Source of the DNA: a candidate division WS6 bacterium OLB20
Lineage (GTDB): Bacteria > Patescibacteriota > Dojkabacteria > B142 > OLB20
Direction of reading: 5' to 3'
DNA: 64,000 nucleotides
Assembly (NCBI GenBank): GCA_001567355.1
Contig: JYNZ01000003.1
Span: 402,263-466,262, forward strand
In this document: positions 8,966 to 57,579 of the stretch, piece after piece
How positions within the stretch are numbered: position 1 is the stretch's first letter
Layout: every line of letters begins with the position of its first letter
Position numbers and translations under genes: made by a program
The notes under the pieces: model-generated
Database searches by the model: none
Seen by the model: the letters and a program-made list of their open reading frames with translations, nothing else
What the model was told of the DNA's origin: nothing

Positions 8966-8983
8966 GACTTGGACAGTGTAGTA

Positions 8984-27894: not shown

Positions 27895-27987
27895 AATGGC
27901 GCCATGAAACGGCAGAACGTGTTTTCAATCCGGAGTGATTACAAGTAATATGTGGTGTACACGGGTTGAACAACGAGTACTATCGAA

Positions 27988-34935: not shown

Positions 34936-34953
34936 GCGAGATAAAAATAATTA

Positions 34954-35559: not shown

Positions 35560-35564
35560 CGTGT

Positions 35565-36170: not shown

Positions 36171-36234
36171 GGCGTATGTAAAAAATGTTTAAACTCAGTC
36201 TAGTCTATTTGGCAGCTAATGTTAAGGTTTGCGC

Positions 36235-36789: not shown

Positions 36790-36805
36790 AGTCGTTTTTT
36801 AAAAG

Positions 36806-37898: not shown

Positions 37899-37941
37899 AC
37901 TACCTAGAGTAGCAGACAGAAACGGTGGCAGCAATACTCTG

Positions 37942-42064: not shown

Positions 42065-43834
42065 GTGGCAGTCATGCATATTCATGGGTACAGTGGTATA
42101 ATCAGCTGCCAAGTAAAACGCGCCATGAAGAACCTGAAACGCAACCTGCACAAGTATGCAACCGAGATTTATTTTCTTGCGCTGTCGCTGATCATCTTTG
42201 TTCCCCTGCTTCGGCCCGGGTACGTTCTTACGCTGGATCTGATCTTTACACCCCGGATGCATTACCAGTACACCAATTCGCACGGTCTCTACAGCGAGAC
42301 TGCTCGTGATGCCGTTCTTAATCTGCTTGCGAGGATCGTCGATGCCAGTGTGATAGAAAAGCTTCTTCTGATGCTGCTGTTTTTCTGTATCGGTTACTTT
42401 ATGTACCGGTTTCTGCTGCAGCTGCGCAAACGCAACCGCAGTTATGCGATTGTTGCCGCAACGCTGTATATGTGGAATCCGTTCACTTACTCGCGTCTTC
42501 TTGCCGGTCACTGGGCATTTTTATGCGGCTACGCGCTGCTGCCTGTCTTTATGTGGGGACTGCATCACTTCTACCGCCAGAAAAAAATCTCCAACAGACT
42601 GCTGATCGCCTGCTCGGTATCATGGTTTGTGGCAAGCCTTGTCAGTGTTCATTTTCTGCTGCTGTTTGCAGTACCGTTTGCTGTATATACAGTACTGCAC
42701 ATGTTCACCTATGTGCGCTGGGACCGGACTGCAGCCCGTGCCGTAGCTCTGCTGGCATTTATCACGCTGTTTTCACTCAGCTGGATTGTACCCTCGCTTC
42801 TGATAAGCGATGTATCACGCCTGGGTCCGCTGCATCTGATCTTTTTCGCTCCCACTCCCGACCTTCAGTACGGTCTTACCTTTAATCTGCTCAGCATGTA
42901 CGGTTTCTGGGCCGAGAGCACCATCGGCACCATGCCAAAGGAGCTGATCACCGTCTGGCCCCTTCTGACACTGGTTCTGTTAATCATTGTTGCGGCTCCG
43001 CTGATCCGTGCAGGCGGTGATCTGCTTGCCATCAAGAAAAACAAATCCTACAGCAGGACACAGCGTCTGCTGATCGGATCCCTGTTTATCACCGGACTGC
43101 TTGGACTCGTTCTTGCGCATGGCTCTACAGGGTTTATGCAGCCTGTCTGGGATTACCTCTACAATACCGTTCCGGTTCTGCAGCCGTTCCGTGAAGTACA
43201 GAAGTTTCTGCTGCTGTACGTGTTTGCAGCAACCGTTCTGTTCTATTATGGCCTTGACGCTGTTGCCGACCTGATCAGGGAGGGGGTACGTTCTGTCCGG
43301 TCGCGCTTTACAATTGATGCAGAACGGATCACCGCCTTTTCGGGTCTGATACTCGTAATCCTGATTACACCATTGCTTGGTTTTGCCGCTGCAGGGCAAC
43401 TGCAGACAACACAGTATCCCCGGTCCTGGTACCAGCTTGAGGAGGAGCTTACAGAGCGCGCGACCGAGGGGCGTATTCTGGTACTGCCGTGGCGCGCCTA
43501 TGCCGAGTTTCCGTTCAGCAGCAGACAGATTGCTGACCCGTCACGGTCATTTTTCAGCGGTTATGTAATCAGTGAACGTGTTCCGGCCTATCTGCGCTCA
43601 ACCATCGAATGCGAAATTGAATTTACAGAAATTCACCGCAACGAAGTGATCCGCCTCTGCCTCGGCAGTGACTCTGACAAGCAGGACTGGATCAGCCAGG
43701 TCAAACTTAACAGCATCGATTATGTCGTCTTCAACAAAGTTCAGGCCTTCAAGGTTAATGACTTCTTTAATGATGAGGAACACTTTCAACTCATCTATTC
43801 GGATAACTATGCGGATATCTACCGGGTGTTATAA
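42065..43834 (+). CDS. Polytopic integral membrane protein, GT-C-type glycosyltransferase-like (YfhO/PMT-like topology). The true start is probably the Met at 42125.
   Basis: At least 11 TM helices. First extracytoplasmic loop has acidic residues (TLDLIF...SETARDAV). Blocks TLDLI, LYMWNPFTYSRLLAGHWAFLCGYALLPVFMWGL align to the N-terminal domain of the 49001..52660 paralogue. Confidence 0.55.
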   Translation: MAVMHIHGYSGIISCQVKRAMKNLKRNLHKYATEIYFLALSLIIFVPLLRPGYVLTLDLIFTPRMHYQYTNSHGLYSETARDAVLNLLARIVDASVIEKLLLMLLFFCIGYFMYRFLLQLRKRNRSYAIVAATLYMWNPFTYSRLLAGHWAFLCGYALLPVFMWGLHHFYRQKKISNRLLIACSVSWFVASLVSVHFLLLFAVPFAVYTVLHMFTYVRWDRTAARAVALLAFITLFSLSWIVPSLLISDVSRLGPLHLIFFAPTPDLQYGLTFNLLSMYGFWAESTIGTMPKELITVWPLLTLVLLIIVAAPLIRAGGDLLAIKKNKSYSRTQRLLIGSLFITGLLGLVLAHGSTGFMQPVWDYLYNTVPVLQPFREVQKFLLLYVFAATVLFYYGLDAVADLIREGVRSVRSRFTIDAERITAFSGLILVILITPLLGFAAAGQLQTTQYPRSWYQLEEELTERATEGRILVLPWRAYAEFPFSSRQIADPSRSFFSGYVISERVPAYLRSTIECEIEFTEIHRNEVIRLCLGSDSDKQDWISQVKLNSIDYVVFNKVQAFKVNDFFNDEEHFQLIYSDNYADIYRVL

Positions 43835-43853
43835 TTGCTGAAACACTGGAGCC

Positions 43854-44132
43854 GTGAGCGAACAACTTGCGACATACCATATCGGCAGACTTCTTGCGCA
43901 GGAGGCGTTTTCAGAACGCAACTCCACATATCCGGGTACGATCATGGCAATTACACCACTTGAGGTAAGCGCCAGAAAGCTTGCCGGAGAAGCCTCCGAG
44001 TGGGGAGTCAGTCTTGAGCACTACAGCGGATTTATCCCTTACATTGATGTAGAGTTCCGGGTCGCTGCAGCATACTATCTTGCAATTATGTTGCGGGACA
44101 GATACGGGGACACTTCTCCGCACTCATTCTGA
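43854..44132 (+). CDS. Small hypothetical protein (92 aa).
   Basis: ORF only. It fills the gap between the GT-C-like gene and the TP-rich protein gene on the same strand. Confidence 0.3.
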   Translation: MSEQLATYHIGRLLAQEAFSERNSTYPGTIMAITPLEVSARKLAGEASEWGVSLEHYSGFIPYIDVEFRVAAAYYLAIMLRDRYGDTSPHSF

Positions 44133-44232
44133 TACATATCTGTAACATATCTTAATCTTGACCGTAATGCCAGCTATAGGATATAATTCTGACGTTTCAC
44201 TGCCTCGAAACTAACTTTTCAGTAGAACCACT

Positions 44233-46116
44233 GTGAGTGATCTTGACCCAATTCGACGTGACGATGAAGATCTGTTCCGTAGCGATGCAGGTACCGGCGA
44301 CATGTTTGACGAACTGAGACCCACTGAGGGACTTACACCCGAAGAACGCGCGCGCCGCAACCGCATGATCCTTGCAGGCGTTTTGATCATGGCAGCAGCA
44401 ACGATCGTAATTATCGCAGGCATTCTGTATCTGCAGTACGAGGACGGCAGACTGGAACGTATCGGAGAAGCCGGCACCCAGACTGCTGTATATAATGCGA
44501 CAGGAACACAGCACCAGATCTTTATTCGAGATGAAACTGCGACTGCGGAGGCATTTGTCCTGCCGACCAATACTCCAACACCATCTGATACACCGACACC
44601 AACGCTGACTCCAACACCTACACTGACGCCTTCACTGACTCCGACAAGCACACATACACCTACGATAACACCATCGCCCACCTGGACACCCGACATGATC
44701 GGTACCGGCACTGCTGAGGCATACGCAGCTGCCACTGCTACAGAGATCTATAATGACAGTGTCGACTTCGGTCGCAACCTGATCTTCGAGCCTGACAGCC
44801 GGACATGGTTTTCTATCGAGACCGGCTTTATCAATCCTCCCCTGCCCGAAAACCCGACACCGGATCAGATACAGAGATGGATGGACTTTGAAGCCCAGCA
44901 GGCAGAGGTTGTAAGAGCATATGCATATGCACGGTACACAGGCGAAACGTTTGACTCAACTCAGCTTGACAGTGTTATAGCTGCACAGCGGGCATTGTTT
45001 GCAGATTACGGACTTGATCTGTCAGTTGTTGCCGAAACTGCCGCCGCAAGCACTATCGGAGATGGTGATGACGGTAATGATGTACCTGACGGCAATGCGT
45101 TTCTGTACGGCCAGCTTGCTGGTGAATTTGAGTCACTTGTTGAACAGCTGCAGGGCAACGATGGTGATTATGGCAATAACGACGGACGTGCAAACGGTCT
45201 GACACAGCGTACAATGAGACTTCTGACCTTACGCGCAGGAGCACTGGGATCCATGGCCTCCGGTGAAACAGGTATGGATGCGACAATACTTGCTGTAGTA
45301 AACGCGATCCCTGATGTTGACGGATCACCGGCAGCACCGCTAACAGATTTTGATGTTACCGTCTCTGTTGTACCATCGGATCTGATTGCTGGTGGACGCG
45401 GAATAGTAAACCCTGACTTTATTGTCTGGGATTCTGACGTTGACCCTGATTACAGCGGTGGCACTGCTGTACCGGAGACACCGGCGGTGGTCAGAACCGG
45501 AGCGATTTTCTCTCTGCCTCCGGGTCCGGAGGGCACTTTTATGCTGCTTGCCCCCAATGGGGATGTTGACCGGATCGGTGCAACTGCATGTGAGGTAACA
45601 ACCGGTATCAGAACAGGAGACACATTCTCTGATGACGATGGCACTGTGTGCGTTACAGCAGGCCCGGTACTTGGTGTCACTATTTACATGGCTGGTGAGA
45701 CTGATTATGACGAGACAACAATTTACGGCCAGCGGACTGCATTCAGACCGGTGAGCCCGCAAGGGGTACCGGCTGCTACAGCCACATCCGAGGTCCCAGG
45801 CGCACAGCCGACCGACGGTGCCGGCGAGGAGACACCGGTGATCATTCCAACAAGCCAAGGGACACCTGATATAACGTTAATACCACCGACGTTGCAGCCG
45901 ACTCAGCCGGGAGTAACATTTGTTCCTCCTACATCACAACCGACACCTGACAATCCACCTGTGATTCCGACATCACAACCGACACCGGATAGTCCACCTG
46001 CGATTCCGACAGCCCAAAACACACCTGTCGAGCAGCAGGTCATACCGACAGCGCAGAATACACAAGTACCGCAATTTGAGATCCCGACAGCCCAGCCAAC
46101 GCAGGACGGGAACTAA
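44233..46116 (+). CDS. Membrane-anchored surface protein with Thr/Pro-rich linkers.
   Basis: Cytoplasmic N-terminus, one TM (MILAGVLIMAAATIVIIAGILYL). Repeat tract TPTPSDTPTPTLTPTPTLTPSLTPTSTHTPTITPSPTWTP. C-terminal PT/Q-rich repeats IPTSQPTPD..IPTAQNT... Confidence 0.6.
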   Translation: MSDLDPIRRDDEDLFRSDAGTGDMFDELRPTEGLTPEERARRNRMILAGVLIMAAATIVIIAGILYLQYEDGRLERIGEAGTQTAVYNATGTQHQIFIRDETATAEAFVLPTNTPTPSDTPTPTLTPTPTLTPSLTPTSTHTPTITPSPTWTPDMIGTGTAEAYAAATATEIYNDSVDFGRNLIFEPDSRTWFSIETGFINPPLPENPTPDQIQRWMDFEAQQAEVVRAYAYARYTGETFDSTQLDSVIAAQRALFADYGLDLSVVAETAAASTIGDGDDGNDVPDGNAFLYGQLAGEFESLVEQLQGNDGDYGNNDGRANGLTQRTMRLLTLRAGALGSMASGETGMDATILAVVNAIPDVDGSPAAPLTDFDVTVSVVPSDLIAGGRGIVNPDFIVWDSDVDPDYSGGTAVPETPAVVRTGAIFSLPPGPEGTFMLLAPNGDVDRIGATACEVTTGIRTGDTFSDDDGTVCVTAGPVLGVTIYMAGETDYDETTIYGQRTAFRPVSPQGVPAATATSEVPGAQPTDGAGEETPVIIPTSQGTPDITLIPPTLQPTQPGVTFVPPTSQPTPDNPPVIPTSQPTPDSPPAIPTAQNTPVEQQVIPTAQNTQVPQFEIPTAQPTQDGN

Positions 46117-46134
46117 TTATTTATTTATTAATTT

Positions 46135-48954
46135 GTGAGTAACAGCATGAGAAAACTCAAAGCACTGGTAACCGGAGTTCTCCTCACCACGCTGGCCTTC
46201 AGTATGCTGCCTGTGCAGTCAGCACGAGCAGACTTTACAGAATGTGCCATCGGCACTGTTTGTGTGTTCAAGGACGTGTTCAATGATGCCCAGGCAGCAT
46301 GGAACAACAACACAACAAATGGCGTACCCGGTGAATACCATGAGTTCAATATCGGTGTCTGGAATACAACAGCAGGCACCATTAATAATGTCACATTCAG
46401 GGACACCCTTCCTGCAGGACTGACCTTTACAACAGGGTCAATCCAGTTTGCCGGATGGAGCGGTTCCTACAATGAGGCCGACCTTTTCAACGGCACAGGA
46501 ATCAATGTGGGATCTCTGACCAGCGGTCAGTCAGTACAGCTGGCAATCAGAGTTTCCATTGATCCGCTTCCTGCCGGTGTTCACAACCTGACAAACTCGG
46601 CAACAGTAAGCTGGACAGGCGGCAGCAAGAGCAATTCTGCACAGATTGTTGTCACATCCACAGGTCTGCCTGCAGAAGAAGGCGACCTGCTGATCAACGA
46701 GATCAACCACAATCCCCAGGCTGACTGGAGTGGCGGCTCAAGCTACGCTCTCAGCAACCGCACAGCAATCGACGCTGATGACGAGTGGATTGAGGTATAT
46801 GTCACAGAGGCAGGCCTTGACCTGACAGACAGCAACTGGACACTAACCATCGCCAACAATGGCGGTGCATCAAGCACTACACAGCTGCTTGCAACAGGCA
46901 CAGGCTATGAATACTTCGGATCAGGATCAGTCAGCAACACAGCCGCAGGTGCATACCTGCTGATCAATAACCCACTGCTTGACCTGAACGATACAGCAAG
47001 CATCGGCATCGACTTTGACAGCAGCGCCATCGACAGCATGAGCTACAGCGGCACACCGTCAGGTCTTCTGGACGAGACTGTCGGCCGCAATGCATCAAGC
47101 ACCGATACTGGCAGCAACAGCGACTTTTCACGCAATCATGCCACACCAGGCATGGTTAACGATGTTCGCAGCGCAACCCGCTATGAGGCAGAGATCTATA
47201 TGGCATCCGGAGCAGGTAACGAGCATGGTGAGGATGAGCGGATTGCGGCAGCAAGCCGCGGACTCGCAGTAAAACTGGATTCCAGCGTGGACCTTGCCGG
47301 TGACACGTTCAGTGTTATCAGCAATGCGCACCAGAGCGCCGGAGCATACCGCGCAGACCTGCGCATCCGCACCAATGATGCCATCCTTAACGACTTTGAC
47401 AGCAAATTTGCTGACTTTGTGGTCGCCTATCCTAACGGCAGCGGCGGATACAAAGAGACAGGATTCGCAATCGTCGGACGCGACTTCAGCAGCAATGGAA
47501 CATTCCAGACACTTTCAATCGAGTTTGTTAAACCTGCGACAAGCGGAAACAACATCTACCAGATGAACTTCTTCCCTGCTGCAGGCGTTAACGTAGTTGT
47601 TGACTACATCGAAGTAACACAGATCAGCCCGAGCAATGCTCTACCCCAGGTTTTCCAGGCAGAAGATATGCACAAGAAGGCAGGCAGCGTGTTTAACGAT
47701 GGCGGAACAACAGTAGTTCTCGGCAATGCGTCCGAGATCAGCGGTATTCCGGTACATGTAGCATACGGACCGTACACCGCTAAATTCCACACCGGTCTTA
47801 ACAGTCAACAGCTTGAGGCATCATTCCGCCTTAAGTTTGCCAACGTAACCGGTACAGGCAACGATGTCATCGCCCGTATCGAAGTGACAAACCCGACCCA
47901 GGGTCTCAACCGTGAGACATTCCTGAGGGCAAGCGATGTAAGCGGCAGCTATGCCGACTACAAACTGCAGTTTCCGACTGCATCGGAAGGATCATTCCAG
48001 TTCCGTGTGATGAACTTCGGCAATGCAGACATCTTTTTTGACAGTGTGACTGTCAACAGTCTGAGCGGTCTGCCTGTATGGGTATACGAGACCGAGAACG
48101 ACTTTGACCTTACAAACAACGGTGTTATCCAGGATAACGCCGCAGCCTCCGGCGGACAGGAAGTTGTAACGACTGTTGCCGCTAACGATCCGGGTCACAT
48201 CCAGATGGGACCGTTTACACTGGACCAGACCGGTACAGGAGAGTTTTACAAGGCGACCTACCGTGTCCGCACAACCGGTACACCGTCATCATCTGATATT
48301 GCAGCGCTGATGATCGTGCGCGAATTTGATACAGCACGCATCATCGCCAACGGATATATCTATGCCAATACTCTCAACAGCGACTATCGCGAGTTTGAGG
48401 TCATCTTCCAGTCATTCAGCTCAGGACGCAATACTTACGAGCTGTACTTCAATGATGTCGTTGATGTTATCTCAGACAGCGTTACTGTCGAGCAGCTGGC
48501 AGCAAATCCTGACCCGCGTGAGATCCAGGCAGAATCACTTTACCGTGAAGGCCTGAACGGTGATATTACTGAAGACGCACTGGCAACCAACGCAATCGGG
48601 CATACAACCGGTCTTGCAGTGATTGCACAGGACGGCGTTGATGACGGTAAAATCATCGTCTACTCCAACAGCCAGGAGATGTTTGCAGCCGGCAACTACG
48701 AAGCTGCATTCAGCCTGCGCAAGACAGGTCCGGGCAGCTCATCTGCTCCGGTCATGTACGTTGAGGTGTTTACACCGTTCAACCAGATCGGCTATGTGGA
48801 GGTAAGCGAAGCGGACCTGAGTACAGGCGGCTACACAGACATTGTTGTACCGTTTAACCTGGGCAGCAGCGAGCGAATCTACTATAAGATCTACTTTGTG
48901 GGCGGTACCGGGAACAACATCCTGGTGGACAAAATCACGCTGGATAAGGTATAA
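46135..48954 (+). CDS. Secreted large surface protein with a DUF11-like N-terminal domain and a lamin-tail domain (LTD), followed by beta-rich repeats.
   Basis: Signal peptide ..LPVQSARA. LTD-like block DLLINEINHNPQADWSGGSSYALSNRTAIDADDEWIEVYVTEAG. 939 aa. Confidence 0.6.
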   Translation: MSNSMRKLKALVTGVLLTTLAFSMLPVQSARADFTECAIGTVCVFKDVFNDAQAAWNNNTTNGVPGEYHEFNIGVWNTTAGTINNVTFRDTLPAGLTFTTGSIQFAGWSGSYNEADLFNGTGINVGSLTSGQSVQLAIRVSIDPLPAGVHNLTNSATVSWTGGSKSNSAQIVVTSTGLPAEEGDLLINEINHNPQADWSGGSSYALSNRTAIDADDEWIEVYVTEAGLDLTDSNWTLTIANNGGASSTTQLLATGTGYEYFGSGSVSNTAAGAYLLINNPLLDLNDTASIGIDFDSSAIDSMSYSGTPSGLLDETVGRNASSTDTGSNSDFSRNHATPGMVNDVRSATRYEAEIYMASGAGNEHGEDERIAAASRGLAVKLDSSVDLAGDTFSVISNAHQSAGAYRADLRIRTNDAILNDFDSKFADFVVAYPNGSGGYKETGFAIVGRDFSSNGTFQTLSIEFVKPATSGNNIYQMNFFPAAGVNVVVDYIEVTQISPSNALPQVFQAEDMHKKAGSVFNDGGTTVVLGNASEISGIPVHVAYGPYTAKFHTGLNSQQLEASFRLKFANVTGTGNDVIARIEVTNPTQGLNRETFLRASDVSGSYADYKLQFPTASEGSFQFRVMNFGNADIFFDSVTVNSLSGLPVWVYETENDFDLTNNGVIQDNAAASGGQEVVTTVAANDPGHIQMGPFTLDQTGTGEFYKATYRVRTTGTPSSSDIAALMIVREFDTARIIANGYIYANTLNSDYREFEVIFQSFSSGRNTYELYFNDVVDVISDSVTVEQLAANPDPREIQAESLYREGLNGDITEDALATNAIGHTTGLAVIAQDGVDDGKIIVYSNSQEMFAAGNYEAAFSLRKTGPGSSSAPVMYVEVFTPFNQIGYVEVSEADLSTGGYTDIVVPFNLGSSERIYYKIYFVGGTGNNILVDKITLDKV

Positions 48955-49000
48955 TAGACCTATAGTCTGAGTTCTCAGACATAATTATAGGACTTGTACC

Positions 49001-52000: not shown

Positions 52001-52660
52001 CTCTCCCAGGAGTACGGGTATGTAATCAGTTTTGACTACAAGACCGGTGGGGAGTCGGATGCGCGTATCTGTCTGCTTCGCAGCAGCGACGGTACCTGCA
52101 GTGTTGACACAGTACTTGAACATGCTGGAGAGTGGTCACGTCATACGGAATACTTTAGTCCACAAAATCGCAGCGACTACGAGCTGTTCTTTTACGCGTA
52201 CAAAGAAAACGCGAGTGACCGCGAATACTACGAGGCACATTTTGATAATCTGAAGATTTTCCGGATTCCGCGCAACTACGCGGGCCGCTTTGCTATTACC
52301 AGTGCCGCTGCAGCTGATGCAAAAGCCCCGGAGGTATCTGTAACGTCCGTGTCACCGACAAGAATTACACTTTTAGCAACCAAAGCAGAGCAACCCTACC
52401 TTCTGCGTCTGAGTATGCAATACTCTCCAAACTGGAAACTGAACGGGGCTGAGGTTATCTCGCAGACAACCGGCACAGGGACAGATACCATCTGGTACCT
52501 GTCACCGCATGATTCGACTGAGATTGAACTTGTCTATGCCCCGCAGCGCTCGTTTGAGCCGGTAATTGTGGTATCGGCTGTAAGTGCCTTTGCCACCCTT
52601 ATGCTGTGGCCGGCATTCAGACTTTATTATGCAATTAAACGCAATGGCACCGGTAACTGA
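49001..52660 (+). CDS. Giant (1219 aa) membrane protein: N-terminal GT-C-like polytopic domain paralogous to 42065..43834, about 750-aa extracytoplasmic domain, C-terminal TM.
   Basis: ~12 TM helices in the first 450 aa with blocks VTLDIL, LFYVLNTYTLVLFSEAGHINTLTAYAFVPFVMILF. Long soluble domain. Final TM VIVVSAVSAFATLMLWPAF. The architecture recalls YfhO-type GT-C enzymes. Confidence 0.6.
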   Translation: MFKRLLETITRRPSILILFTMASFVLIFALQWISPLPQYGGDWHYVYPAELESSVRLPQTWTTGENFGQSNAARVTLDILRAGQGILYTGTGADFAVSEVVIWFIPFVVGGFAGMYLFARKLFKSGTAALVAGLFYVLNTYTLVLFSEAGHINTLTAYAFVPFVMILFLDILRRTQITPVFGYVLVFTLVFIFDIRIAFVSLIIQLVFLIYWFTHNHTRREIRRIVPRFVLAGALLLLTNLFWIYALFGIRGEVLFDKGQNDPAWVERLSFQEVSHGLTGQHPFWGYDGVSYFTSNDVSPVFFVFFALILAGMILARNKRLRSSMIVLFAVWLTGVFLIKGANEPFTGVYEWLFTNVPGFVMFREPQKFYILVMFAMSLLTGISVEIILRRLVQANPARAAQLKLLFALLFVIVFVIALLPAYSLSLDGVARDRELPEYAQFTADLVSRDSTFYRTLWVPQLTAAAYWDAMHPRVDASIALTDYFGVDEKDAERVFAYMRSREFDRFADSSAVKYIVFPQDEDSLRWFTFDFESLIRLFTSREGYTLVSSPDDSFAVFRNDSFDSLATADTRSVLTSYDPRIETAPQGTVIRFDANNYDVDPKLYESSLIHYSISNYDAVSDVQTGSVVSDLTLLENDMFRLHDTDANRYFRAGFVRSGERFQLQLTSLDESVVFGDTTVPTGSTKLLTQERFFLQRQNSYVVLIGSSYILFSGDEVYDGIAKGLAYLPSPLDAEITVYESNPELYLREEFEPGSTPDIGDCNNFDNRTLEQAGISYTISDDAAQRDGSLLLHADSHSACYTKAMFPNPDDAVAVLTLAYKNLAGSAPEICVYNNTAQTCDLRRTLADAKTDDWTYAAIPFELADEVKTYNLYLYSDALEQRSTNKYDDVSIRAYSPLVRSGLAVESQSETSDRELFLRALNPGIVYNSTVITPHRFQNGSFEQPSNYQLGVKNCNNTDQTDLTFNRIMAQQVEDATDRRFSLALSGERHAACYNLQLGELSQEYGYVISFDYKTGGESDARICLLRSSDGTCSVDTVLEHAGEWSRHTEYFSPQNRSDYELFFYAYKENASDREYYEAHFDNLKIFRIPRNYAGRFAITSAAAADAKAPEVSVTSVSPTRITLLATKAEQPYLLRLSMQYSPNWKLNGAEVISQTTGTGTDTIWYLSPHDSTEIELVYAPQRSFEPVIVVSAVSAFATLMLWPAFRLYYAIKRNGTGN

Positions 52661-52997
52661 GCGGATAAAATCAGGAGTACGTACTGTACTGTCTAACAGC
52701 CAGTACACAGCGCTTGTTATTTACACGGTCGCCCTCTTTCTGCTGGGTGGCTTCAGTCTGCCGGTAAAGATCATTCTGGCTCTGGGGGCCGCATCGCTCA
52801 TCTATGCGATTCCTGTTACAGCCATTCTTGTCTTTACCCTGCTGTACACTGCACTGCTTCTGATCACAGGCCGCTTCTCACAGACAGAACAGATAACCGA
52901 GCTGTATTTTGCAGTTTGCGTGTATGTTGTGGTTGAGATGGCACATATTGCTGTGCGCTACTTTGTAAAGCGCACACAGAAGCTACTTGAGCCCTGA
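52629..52997 (+). CDS. GtrA-like small 4-TM membrane protein (possible polyprenyl-phosphate-sugar translocase partner). The ORF is open from 52584.
   Basis: ~120 aa, 4 hydrophobic helices. It overlaps the 3' end of the GT-C gene, suggesting translational coupling. Size and topology match the GtrA family. No motif-level confirmation. Confidence 0.35.
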   Translation: MQLNAMAPVTERIKSGVRTVLSNSQYTALVIYTVALFLLGGFSLPVKIILALGAASLIYAIPVTAILVFTLLYTALLLITGRFSQTEQITELYFAVCVYVVVEMAHIAVRYFVKRTQKLLEP

Positions 52998-53792
52998 TCT
53001 GGTTCGTGCAGCAGTGTAAACGACCATCTCCAGCAGCTTCATGGTAAAGAGTCCCCATGTCAGATGCGGACGTGTTATCAGCCGGAATGGTTTACGCATG
53101 AAGACAAAAAGACGTCTTAGCGGGTTAAACTGAACTGCGGCATCATCCGCACTCTGCCGGTAGGTACCGATGTTGCGGCTGTAATAGTACTTCTTTTTGA
53201 GATGTTTCCAGAGCGTAAGACCTGTTTCGTCATGCCTGATCCGGGCTGCAATCCTGCCGGTCCTGCCAGATGCCGCTGCACGCTTTGCCAGATCCCAGTC
53301 CTCACCACTGATCATATCTTCATTGTACCCTCCCGTCTTTTCAAAGACCTGCCTTGGAAAAGCTCTGGCAGCCTCGATCCAGGATACGCCTTCATAAAAG
53401 CCCCGTTCAAACCTGCGCACCGCCGGCCAGAATCCCCTGCCGACAGTCTCTTCAGGGATAACCACAGCCGCAAGCCCGGGATCTTCAGAAAAGGCTTCTG
53501 CAACCTGTGTGACGACATCTCGGTCGAGAACCATATCACTGTCAATAAAGATGAGTATGTCGCCTGCAGCCCGTCTGGCGGCCTGATTACGCTGTGCCGA
53601 TCGTTCCGGACCGGCAATAAATGCTGTCCCATACTGCCGCGCGATATCACGGGTTGCATCAGACGAGTTGTTATCTGCAACAATCAGTTCGACGGGGTTC
53701 CACGTCTGTGCCTGAATACTGCGCAGGCAGGCTTCAAGCGTTGCTGCGCTGTTGTAAGTCGGAACAATAACTGTGATTTTAGGCTTTGCCAT
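52983..53792 (-). CDS. Family 2 glycosyltransferase. Start taken at MAKPKITVIV; the ORF is open to 53975.
   Basis: ITVIVPTYNSAATLEACLRSI, DNNSSDAT, FIDSDMVL (DxD), GGYNEDMISGEDWDLAKR. Confidence 0.8.
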   Translation of the reverse strand: MAKPKITVIVPTYNSAATLEACLRSIQAQTWNPVELIVADNNSSDATRDIARQYGTAFIAGPERSAQRNQAARRAAGDILIFIDSDMVLDRDVVTQVAEAFSEDPGLAAVVIPEETVGRGFWPAVRRFERGFYEGVSWIEAARAFPRQVFEKTGGYNEDMISGEDWDLAKRAAASGRTGRIAARIRHDETGLTLWKHLKKKYYYSRNIGTYRQSADDAAVQFNPLRRLFVFMRKPFRLITRPHLTWGLFTMKLLEMVVYTAARTRSGLK

Positions 53793-54879
53793 CAGAAAGA
53801 ACTGCGTCTTTAAAAGCATGATAGCTTTTTTCCCAGGTGAGCGCATTTGCAGCTTTGCGTGCACTGGCGGACAGTTCCTGTCTGAAGTCATCTTCACTGA
53901 AGAGTTTGCGTGCAGCCTGCGCGAGTTTGTCAGGGCTTTCGGCAATCGTGTGCAGTCCGGTTTCCATATGTTCAACGGCTTCGGTATTACCCGGTGTCGG
54001 ATAAACTATGGCCGGGGTACCAAGTGCTGCAGCCTCTGCGACTGCCAGACCCCACCCTTCCTTTACCGATGTGCCAAAGGTCACCCAGGCTGAAGCGACT
54101 ATCCTGTCACGCTCATCCTGCGGGACAAACCCTGTAAATTCGACCCTGTCGTCCAGCTTCAGCTGGCTGACGATTTTTTTCAGTTTACGGGCATACGCAC
54201 TGCTGTCATTACCGAGAATGTACATTTTCAGGTAGGGATACTCTTTTTTAAGCAGCGAGACCGCCACCAGCTGATGCTCGACCCGCTTAAGCGGTCGCAG
54301 ACCGCCAAAGTAGACAATAGACGGACGCTCTGTTTTATCTGCCTCTACCATACTCACCGATACACCTTCGGGAATCACAGTTATCATATCTGACGGGATC
54401 CCGCATGACACAAGCTCATCCCGCCCGGCTTTACTGACTGTCAGGACAGGTTGTGTGCGGTAGAACAGACGCAAAAGGAGCCGCTCAACGACTCTGCCGA
54501 TCAGAGCAACCGGTAACGGTGTCATGTAACTCCAGATCACGCCTGCGACTTCATGTATCAGAAGAACCCGCTTTTCAGCGGGGACATAGAGAGGTGTCAT
54601 AAATGGCAGCGCATGCATCTCATCAATCACGAGGTCATAGCCGTCTTCTTTCCGGAAGTGTCGCCAGGCATGCATAATTACGCTCAGCCGGTTGCCGCGC
54701 CTCATTATCCTGACACCATCAACAGTCTCTTCTGATACGCTGTCCCGAAACGATGATGCAAACCATGTCACGCTGTGACCGTCGGCGACGAACCGTTTCA
54801 TATTTTCCAGCGAAAAGCGTTCTGCCCCGCCTGCTCTGGGATGGGCAGGGTCATATCTGTTCAGGAGGAGTATGTTCAT
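53779..54879 (-). CDS. Family 4 (GT-B) glycosyltransferase.
   Basis: MNILLLNRYDPAHPRAGGAERF N-terminus. C-terminal EGWGLAVAEAAALGTPAIVYPTPGNTE (EX7E region). Confidence 0.8.
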   Translation of the reverse strand: MNILLLNRYDPAHPRAGGAERFSLENMKRFVADGHSVTWFASSFRDSVSEETVDGVRIMRRGNRLSVIMHAWRHFRKEDGYDLVIDEMHALPFMTPLYVPAEKRVLLIHEVAGVIWSYMTPLPVALIGRVVERLLLRLFYRTQPVLTVSKAGRDELVSCGIPSDMITVIPEGVSVSMVEADKTERPSIVYFGGLRPLKRVEHQLVAVSLLKKEYPYLKMYILGNDSSAYARKLKKIVSQLKLDDRVEFTGFVPQDERDRIVASAWVTFGTSVKEGWGLAVAEAAALGTPAIVYPTPGNTEAVEHMETGLHTIAESPDKLAQAARKLFSEDDFRQELSASARKAANALTWEKSYHAFKDAVLSDGKA

Positions 54880-55688
54880 CAGTCCAGAAGACGCAGGGTT
54901 GAAAGTTCCTGCTTAAGCTGTAAAAAGTAACCTGCATCAGCGCCCCGGTAGTAGCGCAGCAGTCGTAACCGGTAGAAAACGGCTGCGGTATCCCAGAACG
55001 ACCTGATCCCTTCAAGTAGTGTCACGGTGCTTCCCTCGATATCTTCCTTAAGTGTAACAGGTACCTCTTCAAATCGTTTAAACCCGAGACTCCACGCGAC
55101 TGACAGAAACTCGACTTCAAATGCAAAGCGCTTTACCAGCAGTCGCGGGATCACCGCATGGACAAGTTCGCGCCTGTAGAGTTTGACGCCGACCTGTGTA
55201 TCACGGACGGGAATACCAAGAAGGATGCGCGAGAATGCGTTGTAGAGCTTGCTGAACAGACGCCTGCGTCCCGAATAGTGCAACAGTGTGTCCGGATGCC
55301 ATTTGGACGGGATAACAGCATCTGCGTGCGTTTTCTGCATGGTTGTAATCAGACGGGTGAGATTACCGGGCAGAATATCCGCACCCGCGTCAACATATCC
55401 GATGTATGCTCCACGTGCGCGGGCCATTCCAAATTTGACCGCAAAACCCTTTCCGCGGTTTTTCTCGTAGTGGTAATAACGGACATTGGGATGTGCAAGC
55501 TTTTTGAGGGCCTCGGCTGTCTCAACTGAGCGTCCGTCAATCACAACAATGATCTCATATGGTACATGCAGGCTTTCCAGCTCCACAAGACGGGATTTAA
55601 CCGTTTCTAGGATAAACCGGCCCGCCCGGTAGGCAGGGATTACAATTGAGACCAGAATTTTATCGGACTGGTTTGTGGTGCGGTTCAT
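54879..55688 (-). CDS. GT2 polyprenyl-phosphate sugar synthase-like (DPM1/GtrB/CsbB-like). The ORF is open to 55739.
   Basis: ILVSIVIPAYRAG, IIVVIDGRSVET (DxD-like), NRGKGFAVKFG, YVDAGAD. Size is ~270 aa. Confidence 0.75.
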   Translation of the reverse strand: MNRTTNQSDKILVSIVIPAYRAGRFILETVKSRLVELESLHVPYEIIVVIDGRSVETAEALKKLAHPNVRYYHYEKNRGKGFAVKFGMARARGAYIGYVDAGADILPGNLTRLITTMQKTHADAVIPSKWHPDTLLHYSGRRRLFSKLYNAFSRILLGIPVRDTQVGVKLYRRELVHAVIPRLLVKRFAFEVEFLSVAWSLGFKRFEEVPVTLKEDIEGSTVTLLEGIRSFWDTAAVFYRLRLLRYYRGADAGYFLQLKQELSTLRLLD

Positions 55689-56889
55689 AGAACAGCATCT
55701 GATATCCCAGGTAAACGAGTGACAGTGCGAGCATTCCACCCATGAAGACCGTCTGCACTGTCAGTATAGCTTCGATCGAGTTGCCCCAGAAGAGTAACGC
55801 ACCGGTCTGTATCACCAGCGCGATCCCCAGCAGCGGAACGTATGAATCACGGTCCTTGCCGATCAGGTATGCAGAGATCTGATTGACACAGACAAACATG
55901 GTCATGATCACAGCCTCCAGAGGCAGATATGCAGGTACAAGTGCAAATTCCGACCCGAACACAAATTGGGTAATCGGGGCTCCGAGCAGTACAAAACCGA
56001 TAAAACTGCCGATGCCGATAAACATACTCATGGCCAACCCCTCTACAAGCAGCGACAGTTTTGCCCCCTTCTCTGAACTGATAGGGAACAGTGCCAGCGT
56101 TATCGAGTTAGCGAGATAAAAAATCAGCTTGCCGAAGGTGATCACGGCGCCGTAGATACCTGCGTCAGCTTCTGTCAGAGTGTTTCTGGCAATGATGGAA
56201 TCCGCAGTCAGCATAAGGTTGAGCACAATAAACCCTATCGAGACTGACGCCAGCAGACGCCGGCTGAAGATCTTTTTCAGATCTGTATCATAGTCCTTTT
56301 TATCTTCAATCCGTTCAGCCATGCGCCTGGCGAGCAGAAGTGTAATAAACGAGCTTACTGCCAGACCAAACATCACGCCCGAAACCCCGAGTCCCAGAAG
56401 AACAGCAGCAAATGCCGTTACCAGTTTGAGTACTGCCTCTAATATCTGGGTTGATGCCATGTCGCCAAAGCGTTTGTAGCCACGCAGTATTCCTCTGTAC
56501 AAGGCCAGATCCAGTCCTGTCAGTGCCAGAAGCGCAAGCATGATGAAGGGAATGATATTGTCCAGCCGCAGGAACTCACGCAGGAACAGCCAGCCCGCTG
56601 CGATAATGAAGACTGCAACCACAAGCTGCGCCTTAAACAGAACAGGACGCAGATTTGAGGTAAGGCCGGTGTCTCCGGCTTTACCGCCCGCGATGACCTT
56701 GGTGACCAGGTTGGACACCACCGTCTGCAGGATCGTAATAATAAAGGAAAGCGAAACCAGTGCGACCAGTTTGCCGAACTCCTCAGGACCGATAATCTTA
56801 CCGATCGTGTAAAAGACGAAGTTGAGGGCAGCTGAGACTATCGCAGCAACCGAAAATATCGCCGTGCCTTTCAGTAGCTGTTTAGACAT
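55660..56889 (-). CDS. MOP-superfamily polysaccharide/oligosaccharide flippase (Wzx-like).
   Basis: 409 aa, ~12 TM helices. N-terminal MSKQLLKGTAIFSVAAIVSAALNFVFYTIGKIIGPEEFG is typical of polysaccharide biosynthesis protein / Wzx N-termini. Confidence 0.7.
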   Translation of the reverse strand: MSKQLLKGTAIFSVAAIVSAALNFVFYTIGKIIGPEEFGKLVALVSLSFIITILQTVVSNLVTKVIAGGKAGDTGLTSNLRPVLFKAQLVVAVFIIAAGWLFLREFLRLDNIIPFIMLALLALTGLDLALYRGILRGYKRFGDMASTQILEAVLKLVTAFAAVLLGLGVSGVMFGLAVSSFITLLLARRMAERIEDKKDYDTDLKKIFSRRLLASVSIGFIVLNLMLTADSIIARNTLTEADAGIYGAVITFGKLIFYLANSITLALFPISSEKGAKLSLLVEGLAMSMFIGIGSFIGFVLLGAPITQFVFGSEFALVPAYLPLEAVIMTMFVCVNQISAYLIGKDRDSYVPLLGIALVIQTGALLFWGNSIEAILTVQTVFMGGMLALSLVYLGYQMLFYEPHHKPVR

Positions 56890-56919: not shown

Positions 56920-57579
56920 TTACGCGTTACCTCTGCGTCGTGCTGCAAGCGCGAATGCAAGCAGGATAAGCAGAAGCAGGGATACGATACAGCATAGCAG
57001 GATTACGCCTGCGTTGATAGAGCTCAAAAAGCTCTCGCTGCGCTGGCCTACTGCCCAGTAAGGGAAGTTACCCGCCTCTGAATCATAGAAGAAGTAGATT
57101 GAACTTTCTGTCTTCTGTGCCGTGTTTTCGCGTGACCAGGTGTTGTCATCCTCATTAAAGGTGAACAGTGCAATATCGTCCTCACTGAGGTTATTGTCCT
57201 CGATCCAGCTCTTGCGGACCTTAAGCTCTACCTCTGTTGACTGGATATCATCTGCATCAATGCCGTCAAACTCAAGCTCACAGTATTCGAAAACGTTGTC
57301 GATCTCACCCGCATCAGGCTTGGGGTTTTCGTCAAGCTTGCGCAGAATGATCTCTCCCTTGATTGCGTTTTTAGCCTCAATAGTTACCTTGTCAATTGAT
57401 TCGCAACCGGTCGGAAAGAACGATACTCTGTCCGAAGCGGCAATATCGATGCCGTATACTTCACCGTCTTCACGGTATACAGGTGTAATCTGCTCTGTGT
57501 CGTACTGAGCTGATACTGGAGAAGCTACGAGAAAGCTGAAAACGATCCCGAGCAGAAGTGCTTTGGCACTGTTTTTCAT
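56920..57579 (-). CDS. Secreted protein with a C-terminal TM anchor plus basic tail. The central domain resembles the archaeal/CPR pre-PGF (S-layer-associated) beta domain.
   Basis: Signal peptide ..PVSAQ. Segment VELKVRKSWIEDNNLSEDDIALFTFNEDDNTWSRENTAQKTESSIYFFYDSEAGNFPYWAVG resembles, from memory, the pre-PGF consensus (..sWl..n.....v.lyRy.dg.W..L.T......FsA.tpgfS.fAv). C-terminus ILLCCIVSLLLLILLAFALAARRRGNA. Confidence 0.45.
   Translation of the reverse strand: MKNSAKALLLGIVFSFLVASPVSAQYDTEQITPVYREDGEVYGIDIAASDRVSFFPTGCESIDKVTIEAKNAIKGEIILRKLDENPKPDAGEIDNVFEYCELEFDGIDADDIQSTEVELKVRKSWIEDNNLSEDDIALFTFNEDDNTWSRENTAQKTESSIYFFYDSEAGNFPYWAVGQRSESFLSSINAGVILLCCIVSLLLLILLAFALAARRRGNA

What the first reader, a model, noticed from the sequence alone, without database searches (positions are those of the whole stretch)
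42065..56889. Polyprenyl-phosphate-sugar dependent extracytoplasmic glycosylation locus flanking its probable surface-protein substrates
Gene content reconstitutes a CsbB-GtcA-YfhO / GtrB-GtrA-GtrX / Ppm-Pmt type pathway. A small GtrB/DPM1-like GT2 (54879..55688) would make a lipid-linked monosaccharide. A Wzx-like flippase and a GtrA-like 4-TM protein are present. Two paralogous GT-C-fold membrane enzymes (589 aa and 1219 aa) are encoded; the larger carries a ~750-aa extracytoplasmic domain. GT2 and GT4 enzymes supply further sugars. Sandwiched between the GT-C genes are a Thr/Pro-repeat protein (classic O-glycosylation linker TPTPSDTPTPTLTPTPT...) and a 939-aa LTD-domain secreted protein. 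The layout suggests a dedicated surface or S-layer-like glycoprotein modification system.
Basis: partly seen in the sequence, partly recalled or inferred. Interest (0 to 1): 0.7.

Follow-up and report, generated by a model that had tools for sequence, protein, structure and literature searches.

The report
Surface glycosylation gene cassette, candidate-phylum bacterium
This is a conserved 11-gene cassette in an uncultivated ultra-small bacterium (WS6/Dojkabacteria) that very probably loads sugar onto a membrane lipid carrier, flips it outward and lets two membrane enzymes of the mycobacterial AftD/MmpA type attach it to cell-surface material; it matters because this enzyme family is huge and uncharacterised and includes a protein essential in M. 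tuberculosis.

Summary

The small GT2 belongs with DPMS/GtrB/ArnC-type polyprenyl-phosphate glycosyltransferases. This rests on weak direct matches plus membrane-anchored and positional equivalents elsewhere. A Wzx-type flippase is present. A GtrA homologue is not.

The nine-gene core is collinear in Dojkabacteria. Its enzyme core recurs in Saccharimonadia, other Patescibacteria, DPANN archaea and Actinomycetota. The embedded surface proteins occur only in Dojkabacteria-type cassettes. These are a Thr/Pro-rich anchored protein, a 939-aa DUF11 + LTD-like + four-module protein, and a PGF-pre-PGF protein.

The lipid-linked extracytoplasmic glycosylation reading is supported. The YfhO/PMT analogy is not. 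The acceptor (protein or glycan) remains open. I rate it a new variant of a known kind, of moderate interest.

The parts
42065..43834 (+). Small GT-C-fold membrane enzyme (589-aa ORF; probable start at 42125). It is an MmpA/AftD-type protein of 11 TM helices plus a C-terminal alpha/beta domain of about 150 aa.
43854..44132 (+). Small 92-aa ORF with no TM segment and unknown role.
   Evidence: It is conserved at the same position in Dojkabacteria CP129475 (46% identity, E 3.5e-14). It has no Pfam hit.
44233..46116 (+). Thr/Pro-rich, N-terminally membrane-anchored surface protein (627 aa). It is a candidate O-glycosylation acceptor.
   Evidence: It has a single TM at residues 46-64, then a TP-rich linker, and a Pro/Thr/Gln repeat tail. 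It has no family hit. The position-2 genes in L002, L005, L006 and L001 are all T/P-rich (T 10-12%, P 10-13%). Each has an N-terminal TM or lipobox and Pro-rich C-terminal repeats, but they are not alignable with one another.
46135..48954 (+). Secreted 939-aa protein: signal peptide, DUF11/CLIPPER domain, LTD-like region (about 180-342), and four tandem homologous modules of about 145 aa (345-939).
   Evidence: DUF11 scores 38.4 bits. The LTD-like call rests only on transitive homology to P0203. The four modules are mutually homologous by hhalign (probability 86-98.6%). The module profile's best PDB match is a CBM22 domain, E 0.035, which is not significant. Orthologues are syntenic in L003-L007. 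Only four full-length homologues were found in 5.8 billion proteins.
49001..52660 (+). Large AftD-like GT-C enzyme (1219 aa). It has an N-terminal 10-11-TM GT-C domain, an alpha/beta domain, beta-sandwich modules including two tandem CBM22-like modules (about 760-930 and 930-1105), and a C-terminal TM anchor.
   Evidence: It is paralogous to the small GT-C. Pfam AftD scores 18.2 bits. The syntenic orthologue in L003 passes the Pfam cutoff at 28.4 bits, and the Saccharimonadia-type counterpart has Pfam CBM_4_9 at 38.7 bits. The AF2 model has pLDDT 79.8. Foldseek's top hit is AftD, E 2.2e-14, aligned over nearly the full length; tandem CBM22 (4XUP) follows at E 8e-8. The GGDWHY Asp42 after TM1 is invariant, as is PGFxMFRExQKFY. 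The tandem modules are homologous to each other by hhalign, probability 98.9%.
52644..52997 (+). Small hydrophobic ORF (117 aa).
   Evidence: It has no Pfam hit at E<=0.1, including GtrA. ORFs of similar size follow the large GT-C in L003 and the P0041 contig. They show no sequence similarity to it. No such ORF is present in L005 or L006.
52983..53819 (-). GT2 glycosyltransferase 'GT2b' (about 270-278 aa; the ORF extends to 53975). It is predicted soluble or peripheral and cytoplasmic.
   Evidence: Pfam Glycos_transf_2 scores 99.7 bits. NCBIfam's best hit is TIGR04283, sub-threshold. No TM segment was found. It is syntenic in L005, L006, L009 and many Saccharimonadia loci at 40-46% identity.
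53779..54879 (-). GT4 (GT-B fold) glycosyltransferase, cytoplasmic and nucleotide-sugar dependent.
   Evidence: Pfam Glycos_transf_1 scores 106 bits and Glyco_transf_4 scores 56.9 bits. A homologue lies within 10 kb of the small GT-C in 22 of 46 species-level loci, including Actinomycetota and DPANN archaea.
54879..55688 (-). Small GT2 'GT2a' (269 aa), the predicted polyprenyl-phosphate sugar synthase (DPMS/GtrB/ArnC type). It has no TM helix of its own.
   Evidence: It matches ArnC structures over residues 13-215, E about 1e-5, including the RxxSKxxNxxxxxxxGxxxxD...YRR segment. NCBIfam gives PgfS, ArnC and AglJ full-domain hits, all sub-threshold. Its 39%-identical archaeal homologue (L042) has C-terminal TM helices, and that homologue's best PDB hit is P. 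furiosus DPMS 5MLZ, E 1.4e-19. The positional equivalent in L016 is a full-length GtrB (5EKP, E 2e-62).
55660..56889 (-). MOP-superfamily (Wzx/PST-type) flippase, 409 aa with about 12 TM segments.
   Evidence: Pfam Polysacc_synt scores 51 bits, above the 28.2 cutoff. A homologue lies next to the small GT-C in 21 of 46 loci.
56920..57579 (-). Surface-anchored 219-aa protein: signal peptide, PGF-pre-PGF domain, C-terminal TM and an RRRG tail. It is the best-conserved protein of the cassette.
   Evidence: NCBIfam TIGR04213 scores 51.1 bits, above the 28 cutoff. It is 70% identical in CP129475 and 37% in L006, at the same position after the flippase.

Best explanation
The locus is a conserved cell-envelope glycosylation cassette of the 'lipid-linked donor, flippase, GT-C' type, built around two AftD/MmpA-type GT-C enzymes.

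Proposed steps:

1. On the cytoplasmic face, the small GT2 (GT2a, DPMS/GtrB/ArnC type) transfers a sugar from a nucleotide sugar to polyprenyl phosphate.
2. The GT4 and the second GT2 add further sugars on the cytoplasmic side. They act either on this lipid-linked intermediate or on a separate lipid primer.
3. The Wzx-type MOP transporter moves the lipid-linked sugar(s) to the outer face.
4. The 589-aa GT-C, using the invariant Asp in its first external loop, transfers sugar to an acceptor on the cell surface.
5. The 1219-aa AftD-like GT-C uses its tandem CBM22-like modules to hold a glycan, and extends or branches it.

The product is a surface glycoconjugate. I consider the acceptor most likely a glycan chain (a cell-wall polymer or lipoglycan, or the glycan growing on a protein) rather than bare protein alone. 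In Dojkabacteria the three co-transcribed surface proteins would carry or bind this glycan.

Shown here: folds, family relationships, conserved residues, topology, synteny. Inferred: every enzymatic step, the sugar, the donor form (mono- or oligosaccharide) and the acceptor.
For: **GT-C fold of both enzymes, AftD the top hit by three searches.**
- Large GT-C: Foldseek E 2.2e-14, aligned over nearly the full length.
- In a sequence-profile search of the PDB with the large family, AftD is ranked first. It is collinear in N- and C-terminal segments, although E is 0.13.

**MmpA homology.** E 1.9e-49.

**Catalytic-type conservation.**
- Asp in the first external loop, plus Arg/Lys residues, are invariant across 54 homologues at 22-28% identity.
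- The equivalent GD and FRExxKF motifs are present in the large family.
- AftD needs K39, D41, E251, K361 and D474 (bioRxiv 10.1101/2019.12.22.885152).

**CBM modules.**
- Pfam CBM_4_9 in the Saccharimonadia counterpart.
- Tandem CBM22 fold hits.
- CBMs bind the acceptor glycan in AftD, EmbC and GT136 (PMC11127046).

**Donor synthase.**

**Flippase.** Pfam hit. A MATE-family (not GtrA) flippase serves a three-component system in PMC11127046.

**Co-occurrence.**
- The nine-gene cassette is collinear in three further contigs.
- In 33 of 46 species-level loci, a GT4, GT2 or Wzx homologue lies within 10 kb of the small GT-C.

**Polymer-type accessory genes in relatives.**
- PS_pyruv_trans.
- NTP transferase plus CDP-alcohol phosphatidyltransferase.
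Against: - No biochemical data exist for any member.
- The one studied homologue, MmpA, has a trehalose-mycolate acetylation/transport phenotype. It has not been shown to be an enzyme (PMC8698533).
- GT2a has no TM helix, and its direct matches to ArnC/GtrB are weak (29 bits).
- No priming phosphoglycosyltransferase, cis-prenyl synthase or nucleotide-sugar gene was found in the 64-kb window.
- The large model's domain arrangement is uncertain (pTM 0.55).
- The tight co-transcription of a Thr/Pro-rich protein with the GT-C genes argues for a protein acceptor at least in Dojkabacteria.
Confidence: 0.55

Rival explanations
1. This is a dedicated protein O-glycosylation system. The GT-C enzymes transfer sugar from polyprenyl-phosphate sugar directly onto Ser/Thr of the co-encoded Thr/Pro-rich anchored protein, and perhaps onto the 939-aa and PGF-pre-PGF proteins. 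This would parallel Ppm1/PMT in Actinobacteria or PgfS/PgfM1 and GtrB/PgtC2 in streptococci.
For: - A T/P-rich, N-terminally anchored protein occupies position 2 in every Dojkabacteria-type cassette despite having no alignable sequence.
- Intergenic gaps of 18-100 nt indicate co-transcription with both GT-C genes.
- PMT and OST enzymes are nearly as close structurally as AftD.
- GtrB-type plus GT-C enzymes glycosylate Ser/Thr-rich disordered regions of membrane-associated proteins in streptococci (PMC12041528).
- GT2a has sub-threshold PgfS and AglJ hits, and the GT4's best NCBIfam hit is Agl16.
Against: - There is no sequence membership in PMT, YfhO, STT3/AglB/PglB or PglL families.
- The enzyme core is widespread without these proteins. 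The 939-like protein is found in 3 of 46 loci, all Dojkabacteria.
- Two GT-Cs, a GT4, a second GT2 and CBM modules are more than monosaccharide O-glycosylation needs.
- Relatives carry polysaccharide-type accessory genes.
Confidence: 0.3
2. En bloc or polymerising model. GT2a starts an oligosaccharide on polyprenyl monophosphate, as AglJ does in Haloferax. GT4 and GT2b extend it and Wzx flips it. The GT-C enzymes then act as oligosaccharyltransferase, ligase or polymerase rather than as monosaccharide transferases.
For: - It uses every enzyme in the cassette without needing a missing priming enzyme.
- Wzx-type transporters normally carry lipid-linked oligosaccharides.
- In Haloferax, AglJ, AglG, AglI and AglE build a glycan on dolichol phosphate (PMC3871713).
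- GT-C hits include AglB, STT3 and PglB.
- The large GT-C has a weak Wzy_C hit of 23.1 bits.
Against: - The closest relatives (AftD, AftA, PMT) use monosaccharide donors.
- The Wzy_C hit is below the cutoff of 31.7.
- No OST motifs or family hits are present.
- In some lineages only GT-C plus Wzx, or GT-C plus GT4, are adjacent.
Confidence: 0.1
3. Non-catalytic model. The small MmpA-like protein, and perhaps the large one, is a membrane scaffold or lipid-delivery factor, as the NCBIfam name suggests. The glycosyltransferase genes nearby serve an ordinary cytoplasmic polysaccharide pathway.
For: - NCBIfam names the family 'trehalose lipid delivery protein'.
- MmpA was proposed as a possible membrane anchor for a complex (PMC8698533).
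- AftD has a non-enzymatic partner role with TmaT (bioRxiv 10.64898/2026.07.31.741767).
Against: - An invariant first-loop Asp plus invariant Arg/Lys persist across homologues at 22-28% identity. That is the pattern of an active GT-C.
- CPR bacteria make no mycolates.
- The family is persistently linked with a DPMS/GtrB-type GT2 and a flippase.
Confidence: 0.05

Closest known systems
AftD, mycobacterial arabinofuranosyltransferase D (PDB 6W98; Pfam PF11847 GT-C_AftD/DUF3367)
   Same: It is the top structural match for both GT-C proteins. The large enzyme shares the overall plan: an N-terminal 11-TM GT-C domain, a soluble GT-C domain, carbohydrate-binding modules and a C-terminal membrane anchor. 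A syntenic orthologue passes the Pfam cutoff.
   Different: The window proteins themselves score below the Pfam cutoff. The large enzyme has one C-terminal TM, where AftD has five plus an ACP-binding bundle. No decaprenyl-phospho-arabinose pathway genes are nearby; a DPMS/GtrB-type GT2 is present instead, implying a different sugar. The host is a CPR bacterium without arabinogalactan.
MmpA (NCgl2761 / Rv0226c), NCBIfam NF053599
   Same: It is the closest sequence family of the 589-aa protein (E 1.9e-49). Size and topology are similar. In Actinomycetota a GT4 gene is adjacent, and the corynebacterial mmpA locus contains a predicted glycosyltransferase, cgp_3166.
   Different: The score is below the equivalog cutoff (168.7 vs 210). 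There is no tmaT, mtrP or mycolate context. MmpA's known phenotype is loss of acetyl-TMCM and impaired trehalose-mycolate transport, and its biochemical activity is unknown (PMC8698533).
Three-component extracytoplasmic glycosylation systems (GtrB-GtrA-Gtr*; the PPPRS-MATE-GT136 pentofuranose system, PMC11127046)
   Same: The logic is the same: a lipid-phosphate sugar synthase, a flippase and a GT-C enzyme. The GT136 system likewise has a non-GtrA flippase (MATE family; the one here is Wzx/PST type) and a CBM on the GT-C.
   Different: Here there are two GT-C enzymes of the AftD/MmpA type, two extra cytoplasmic GTs, and no GtrA. In Dojkabacteria, three surface-protein genes lie inside the cassette. 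The acceptor is not an O antigen, because the organism has no LPS context.
Streptococcal Pgf (PgfS/PgfM1/PgfE/PgfM2) and GtrB/PgtC2 protein glycosylation of Ser/Thr-rich regions (PMC12041528, PMC5856776)
   Same: A GtrB-type GT2 plus GT-C enzymes act outside the membrane on Ser/Thr-rich disordered regions of anchored proteins. Those papers report that Pgf modifies the Cnm and WapA adhesins; the cnm-adjacent position of the pgf genes is from my own recollection, not a text I checked here.
   Different: The GT-C families are different, with no sequence relationship detected here. Whether proteins are acceptors in this locus is untested.
Haloferax volcanii AglD-AglR-AglS and AglJ/G/I/E pathway (PMC3871713)
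   Same: A DPMS-like GT2 loads dolichol phosphate. A Wzx-like protein (AglR) is implicated in flipping a lipid-phosphate monosaccharide. A membrane enzyme completes transfer outside. GT2a and the GT4 have weak AglJ and Agl16 hits. A small-GT-C homologue exists in a Haloferax genome.
   Different: No identity with AglS could be tested. The Haloferax homologue lies in a different context, next to a fused GT2-GT4 and sulfatase/phosphodiesterase genes.

Membership tests
GT-C fold glycosyltransferase superfamily | Polytopic membrane domain (7-13 TM helices) whose fold matches solved GT-C enzymes | tested here: met
GT-C fold glycosyltransferase superfamily | Conserved acidic residue in the first extracytoplasmic loop after TM1 | tested here: met
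   Asp58 (ORF numbering) is invariant in 54 homologues. Asp42 in GGDWHY is invariant in the large family. The loop position follows from the model and the positive-inside N terminus.
GT-C fold glycosyltransferase superfamily | Transfer from a lipid-phosphate-linked sugar donor | not testable with these tools
   This needs an enzyme assay.
AftD family (Pfam PF11847) | Score above the Pfam gathering cutoff (26 bits) | tested here: not met
   The window proteins score 17.7 and 18.2 bits. The syntenic orthologue in L003 scores 28.4 bits.
AftD family (Pfam PF11847) | GT-C domain followed by carbohydrate-binding modules and a C-terminal membrane segment | tested here: met
   This applies to the large enzyme only. 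Its model shows beta modules and a C-terminal helix. It has tandem CBM22 fold hits, and its counterpart has CBM_4_9. It has one C-terminal TM, not five.
AftD family (Pfam PF11847) | Decaprenyl-phospho-arabinose donor pathway (UbiA-type DPPR synthase, DprE1/E2) | tested here: not met
   None was found among the window ORFs scanned. Only 64 kb of the genome was seen.
MmpA family (NCBIfam NF053599, equivalog) | Score above the curated cutoff (210 bits) | tested here: not met
   168.7 bits, E 1.9e-49. The protein is a homologue, not an equivalog.
MmpA family (NCBIfam NF053599, equivalog) | Mycolate-pathway context (tmaT, mtrP) | tested here: not met
   No acyltransferase or methyltransferase is present in the cassette or its relatives.
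Gtr-type three-component system | GtrB/DPMS-type polyprenyl-phosphate glycosyltransferase | tested here: inconclusive
   Direct matches are weak (ArnC 29 bits) and the protein has no TM helix. A 39%-identical homologue matches DPMS at 1.4e-19. The positional equivalent matches GtrB at 2e-62.
Gtr-type three-component system | GtrA-family small flippase | tested here: not met
   The 117-aa ORF has no GtrA hit at E<=0.1. A Polysacc_synt (MOP) transporter is present instead.
YfhO / PMT / STT3-AglB-PglB / ArnT families | Family HMM match | tested here: not met
   Neither GT-C has a Pfam or NCBIfam hit to any of these at E<=0.01. The resemblance is at fold level only.
Wzx/Wzy-dependent polysaccharide pathway | Wzx flippase, Wzy polymerase and a priming phosphoglycosyltransferase | tested here: inconclusive
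   A Wzx-type protein is present. The Wzy_C hit of the large GT-C is below cutoff (23.1 vs 31.7). No priming enzyme was found in the window.
Lamin tail domain (Pfam PF00932) in the 939-aa protein | Family HMM match | tested here: not met
   There is no hit at E<=1 in the protein or its orthologues. Residues 180-342 are homologous to an LTD-containing protein, so 'LTD-like' remains plausible.

The most novel reading that the evidence does not exclude
The MmpA-like small GT-C founds a very large, unrecognised glycosyltransferase family, with about 12,000 clusters at 50% identity. In CPR bacteria and DPANN archaea it would attach lipid-linked sugar directly to Thr/Pro-rich surface proteins. This would be a new protein O-glycosylation system. 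The AftD-like partner would extend the glycan, and the 939-aa four-module protein would bind it to form the cell's surface layer. By extension, the essential M. tuberculosis protein MmpA would be an active glycosyltransferase whose glycan product, not lipid delivery as such, underlies its phenotype.
Probability: 0.25. Interest if true: 0.8.

Novelty: new variant of a known kind. Interest (0 to 1): 0.55.

Why it matters
CPR/Patescibacteria have genomes of about 1 Mb, yet keep this six-enzyme core. It is therefore probably central to how these epibiotic cells build their surface, and glycosylation in the group is described as unexplored (bioRxiv 10.1101/2024.11.25.624915).

The small GT-C family is very large: 12,085 cluster representatives. 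It has no Pfam model of its own. Its only studied member is MmpA, which is essential in M. tuberculosis and of unknown biochemistry.

The comparative picture gives a concrete, testable hypothesis for MmpA and for AftD-like proteins outside the mycolata. The picture consists of an invariant first-loop Asp and persistent linkage to a DPMS/GtrB-type GT2, a GT4 and a flippase, across CPR bacteria, DPANN archaea and Actinomycetota. The hypothesis is that these are lipid-linked-sugar glycosyltransferases.

The Dojkabacteria arrangement also nominates specific candidate acceptor or binding proteins.

Tried and rejected
**Searches that found nothing or too little**
- Single-sequence PDB searches of both GT-C proteins found nothing.
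- The small-family profile against PDB found nothing meaningful.
- The large-family profile put AftD first, but only at E 0.13.
- Pfam scans of nine soluble sub-segments and of the TP-rich protein at E<=1 gave nothing.
- Direct LTD and GtrA detection failed.
- A literature search for GT-C enzymes in Patescibacteria found nothing relevant.

**Repeat analysis**
- BLAST found no internal repeats in the 939-aa protein or in the large GT-C's soluble part. Profile-profile comparison was needed.
- That comparison found no homology between the 939-aa modules and the GT-C modules. The idea that both use the same glycan-binding module is not supported.
- The module profile against PDB gave only a non-significant CBM22 match.

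**Hypotheses considered and dropped**
- I considered whether the Haloferax homologue (L013) is AglS. Its neighbourhood is not the agl cluster and no AglS sequence was available, so this is left untested.
- I considered a Wzy/O-antigen-ligase identity for the large GT-C, from a 23-bit Wzy_C hit. I rejected it as the primary label because AftD is the consistent top match.

**Technical failures**
- The first structure model was lost and had to be recomputed.
- The afdb50 fold library was unavailable.

Full report
**Origin and gene map**

The 589-aa ORF is identical to KXK26794 of candidate division WS6 bacterium OLB20 (Dojkabacteria, CPR), on a 745-kb contig.

The plus strand carries, in order:
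- the 589-aa polytopic protein;
- a 92-aa ORF;
- a 627-aa Thr/Pro-rich protein;
- a 939-aa secreted protein;
- a 1219-aa polytopic protein;
- a small hydrophobic ORF.

Gaps between these genes are 18-100 nt.

A minus-strand operon converges on it. It follows groES-groEL and carries:
- a 219-aa PGF-pre-PGF protein;
- a Polysacc_synt (Wzx-type) transporter;
- a 269-aa GT2;
- a GT4;
- a second GT2.

The map rests. The GT2, GT4 and flippase calls are all well above Pfam cutoffs.

**The two polytopic proteins are GT-C enzymes of the AftD/MmpA kind**

At sequence level:
- They are paralogues (E 5e-9 over 474 aa).
- Both give sub-threshold Pfam GT-C_AftD hits.
- The small one matches NCBIfam MmpA at E 1.9e-49, below the equivalog cutoff.
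- UniRef already labels it 'Glycosyltransferase RgtA/B/C/D-like domain-containing'.

MmpA (NCgl2761/Rv0226c) is a membrane protein needed for acetyl-TMCM formation and trehalose-mycolate transport. [quoted passage not shown] A 2026 preprint notes from Foldseek that it may be a glycosyltransferase.

Small enzyme, structure:
- The AlphaFold2 model, from a 24-sequence alignment, has pLDDT 89.4 and pTM 0.91.
- Foldseek against the PDB puts AftD first (E 2.7e-9). Every hit at E<=1e-3 is a GT-C enzyme.
- The fold is therefore certain, but it cannot by itself tell a protein acceptor from a glycan acceptor.

Large enzyme, structure:
- The model has pLDDT 79.8 and pTM 0.55.
- It aligns to AftD over nearly its full length (E 2.2e-14).
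- Its soluble part hits tandem CBM22 modules (4XUP, E 8e-8) and other CBM-bearing proteins.
- Two of its modules are homologous to each other (hhalign probability 98.9%).
- The Saccharimonadia-type counterpart has Pfam CBM_4_9 in the same region.
- A syntenic orthologue passes the Pfam AftD cutoff.

**Conserved residues**

Across 54 homologues that are only 22-28% identical to the query, twelve positions are invariant. In ORF numbering, 3 higher than the numbering of that alignment, they are:
- G52;
- Asp58, in the loop just after TM1;
- K99, R144, G148 and Y156;
- W240, G280 and W282;
- R376, P452 and P475.

K380 is nearly invariant.

The large family keeps the equivalent GGDWHY Asp and a PGFxMFRExQKFY motif. 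A first-loop Asp plus basic residues is what active GT-C enzymes show. AftD needs K39, D41, E251, K361 and D474. This argues against a purely structural role.

**The donor side**

The 269-aa GT2 has no TM helix. It matches ArnC over its whole catalytic domain, including the segment after the DxD-like motif. The scores are weak: 28-29 bits, E about 1e-5.

Two comparisons strengthen the assignment:
- Its 39%-identical homologue in an Aenigmarchaeota cassette has C-terminal TM helices. That homologue's best PDB match is Pyrococcus dolichol-phosphate mannose synthase (E 1.4e-19).
- In a Saccharimonadia-type cassette (L016), the gene in the same position between the flippase and the GT4 is a full-length GtrB (5EKP, E 2e-62) with two C-terminal TM helices.

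No GtrA homologue exists. The flippase candidate is the MOP/Wzx-type protein. There is precedent for a non-GtrA flippase: a MATE-family transporter in the pentofuranose three-component system (PMC11127046).

**Synteny and distribution**

The nine-gene core runs in this order:
1. small GT-C;
2. T/P-rich protein;
3. protein of about 940 aa;
4. large GT-C;
5. GT2;
6. GT4;
7. GT2;
8. flippase;
9. protein of about 220 aa.

This core is collinear in Dojkabacteria CP129475, in a JGI contig with unrelated flanks, and in an ENA contig. It is partly collinear in L003/L004, where a polysaccharide pyruvyl transferase is inserted.

A scan of species-representative genomes found 46 loci. They come from:
- Dojkabacteria, Saccharimonadia and other Patescibacteria;
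- Dehalococcoidia and Actinomycetota;
- archaea: Methanoperedens, Haloferax, Nano-, Aenigm- and Woesearchaeota.

| Partner homologue within 10 kb of the small GT-C | Loci out of 46 |
|---|---|
| Any of GT4, GT2 or Wzx | 33 |
| GT4 | 22 |
| Any GT2 | 22 |
| Wzx | 21 |
| Second, large GT-C | 15 |
| 939-like protein | 3 (all Dojkabacteria) |

The family profile finds 12,085 cluster representatives at E<=1e-3 among 1.84 billion proteins.

**The embedded proteins**

- **Position-2 gene.** In five Dojkabacteria-type loci it always encodes a T/P-rich protein with an N-terminal TM or lipobox and Pro-rich C-terminal repeats. The sequences cannot be aligned, so it evolves fast.
- **939-aa protein.** It has a signal peptide, DUF11 and an LTD-like region supported only transitively. 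It also has four homologous modules of about 145 aa, whose profile weakly resembles CBM22 (E 0.035, not significant).
- **219-aa protein.** It passes the cutoff of the PGF-pre-PGF model TIGR04213, a domain I know mainly from archaea, and is the best-conserved product (70% identity).

**Mechanism and its uncertainty**

I conclude with good confidence that the cassette performs lipid-linked, extracytoplasmic glycosylation by AftD/MmpA-type GT-C enzymes. The acceptor is unresolved.

Points favouring a glycan acceptor:
- CBM modules on the large enzyme;
- AftD kinship;
- two GT-Cs plus two extra GTs;
- polymer-type accessory genes in relatives;
- independence of the enzyme core from the surface-protein genes.

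Points favouring a protein acceptor:
- the constant, co-transcribed T/P-rich protein;
- the streptococcal precedent of GtrB-type plus GT-C enzymes modifying Ser/Thr-rich regions (PMC12041528).

A combined picture is my preferred reading. The small enzyme starts a glycan on an acceptor, possibly the T/P-rich protein. The CBM-bearing enzyme extends it, and the multi-module protein binds it. That picture is inference.

**Comparison and novelty**

The system works like the known three-component systems. It is not a member of the Gtr, CsbB/YfhO, Ppm/PMT or OST families, because the membership tests failed. It is only a sub-threshold relative of AftD and MmpA.

I found no description of this cassette or of GT-C enzymes in Patescibacteria. 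I rate it a new variant of a known kind.

Noticed in passing
window 56920-57579 (-): A PGF-pre-PGF domain protein (TIGR04213, 51 bits) occurs in a CPR bacterium; I know this domain mainly from archaeal surface proteins. It has a signal peptide and a C-terminal TM plus an RRRG tail. It is the most conserved product of the cassette (70% identity to CP129475).
   Followed up: partly
L016 4836-6223: In a Saccharimonadia-type cassette, a MobA-like nucleotidyltransferase and a CDP-alcohol phosphatidyltransferase sit between the second GT2 and the large GT-C. This hints at a phospho-alcohol decoration or a phosphatidyl-type lipid anchor for the product.
   Followed up: no
L003 9096-10136 and L004 8179-9219: A polysaccharide pyruvyl transferase (PF04230) is inserted between the 987-aa surface protein gene and the large GT-C gene.
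   Followed up: no
L013 92-11782 (Haloferax sp. DFSO52): The archaeal small-GT-C homologue lies downstream of a fused GT2-GT4 protein (755 aa), three sulfatase/phosphodiesterase genes, and a 918-aa protein with a weak CBM_4_9 hit. The GT2+GT4+GT-C association therefore crosses domains of life.
   Followed up: partly
window 49001-49060: The GenBank protein for the large GT-C (1199 aa) starts 20 codons downstream of the TTG at 49001. Homologues align through the upstream segment, which completes TM1, so the deposited start is probably too short. Conversely, the small GT-C probably starts at the ATG at 42125, not at 42065 or 42074.
   Followed up: partly
window 26736-29427: A trans-polyprenyl diphosphate synthase (PF00348, 172 bits) lies next to a 479-aa prenyltransferase/squalene-hopene-cyclase-like alpha-alpha toroid protein. 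They sit at the edge of a lower-GC stretch (0.42-0.45 between 28 and 34 kb).
   Followed up: no
window 33695-41449 (-): A run of T4SS_pilin-like small membrane proteins is followed by a ClpC/ClpB-like double-AAA protein. Two small membrane ORFs (41380-42025) come next. The arrangement is syntenic upstream of the cassette in several Dojkabacteria (L001, L002, L005) but absent in L006.
   Followed up: partly
window 4723-11551: A tyrosine integrase, a 722-aa pentaxin/LamG-domain protein and a VirD4/TraG-like coupling protein lie together. This is possibly an integrated conjugative element.
   Followed up: no
L001 10077-11573: In one Dojkabacteria relative, an AbiEii toxin gene and a companion ORF are inserted between the small GT-C and the T/P-rich protein gene.
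   Followed up: no
L017, L022: Two MAGs labelled 'uncultured Gammaproteobacteria' carry homologues of the small GT-C. L017 has the full Saccharimonadia-type enzyme core; L022 has only GT2 homologues within the contig. The taxonomic labels may be wrong.
   Followed up: no
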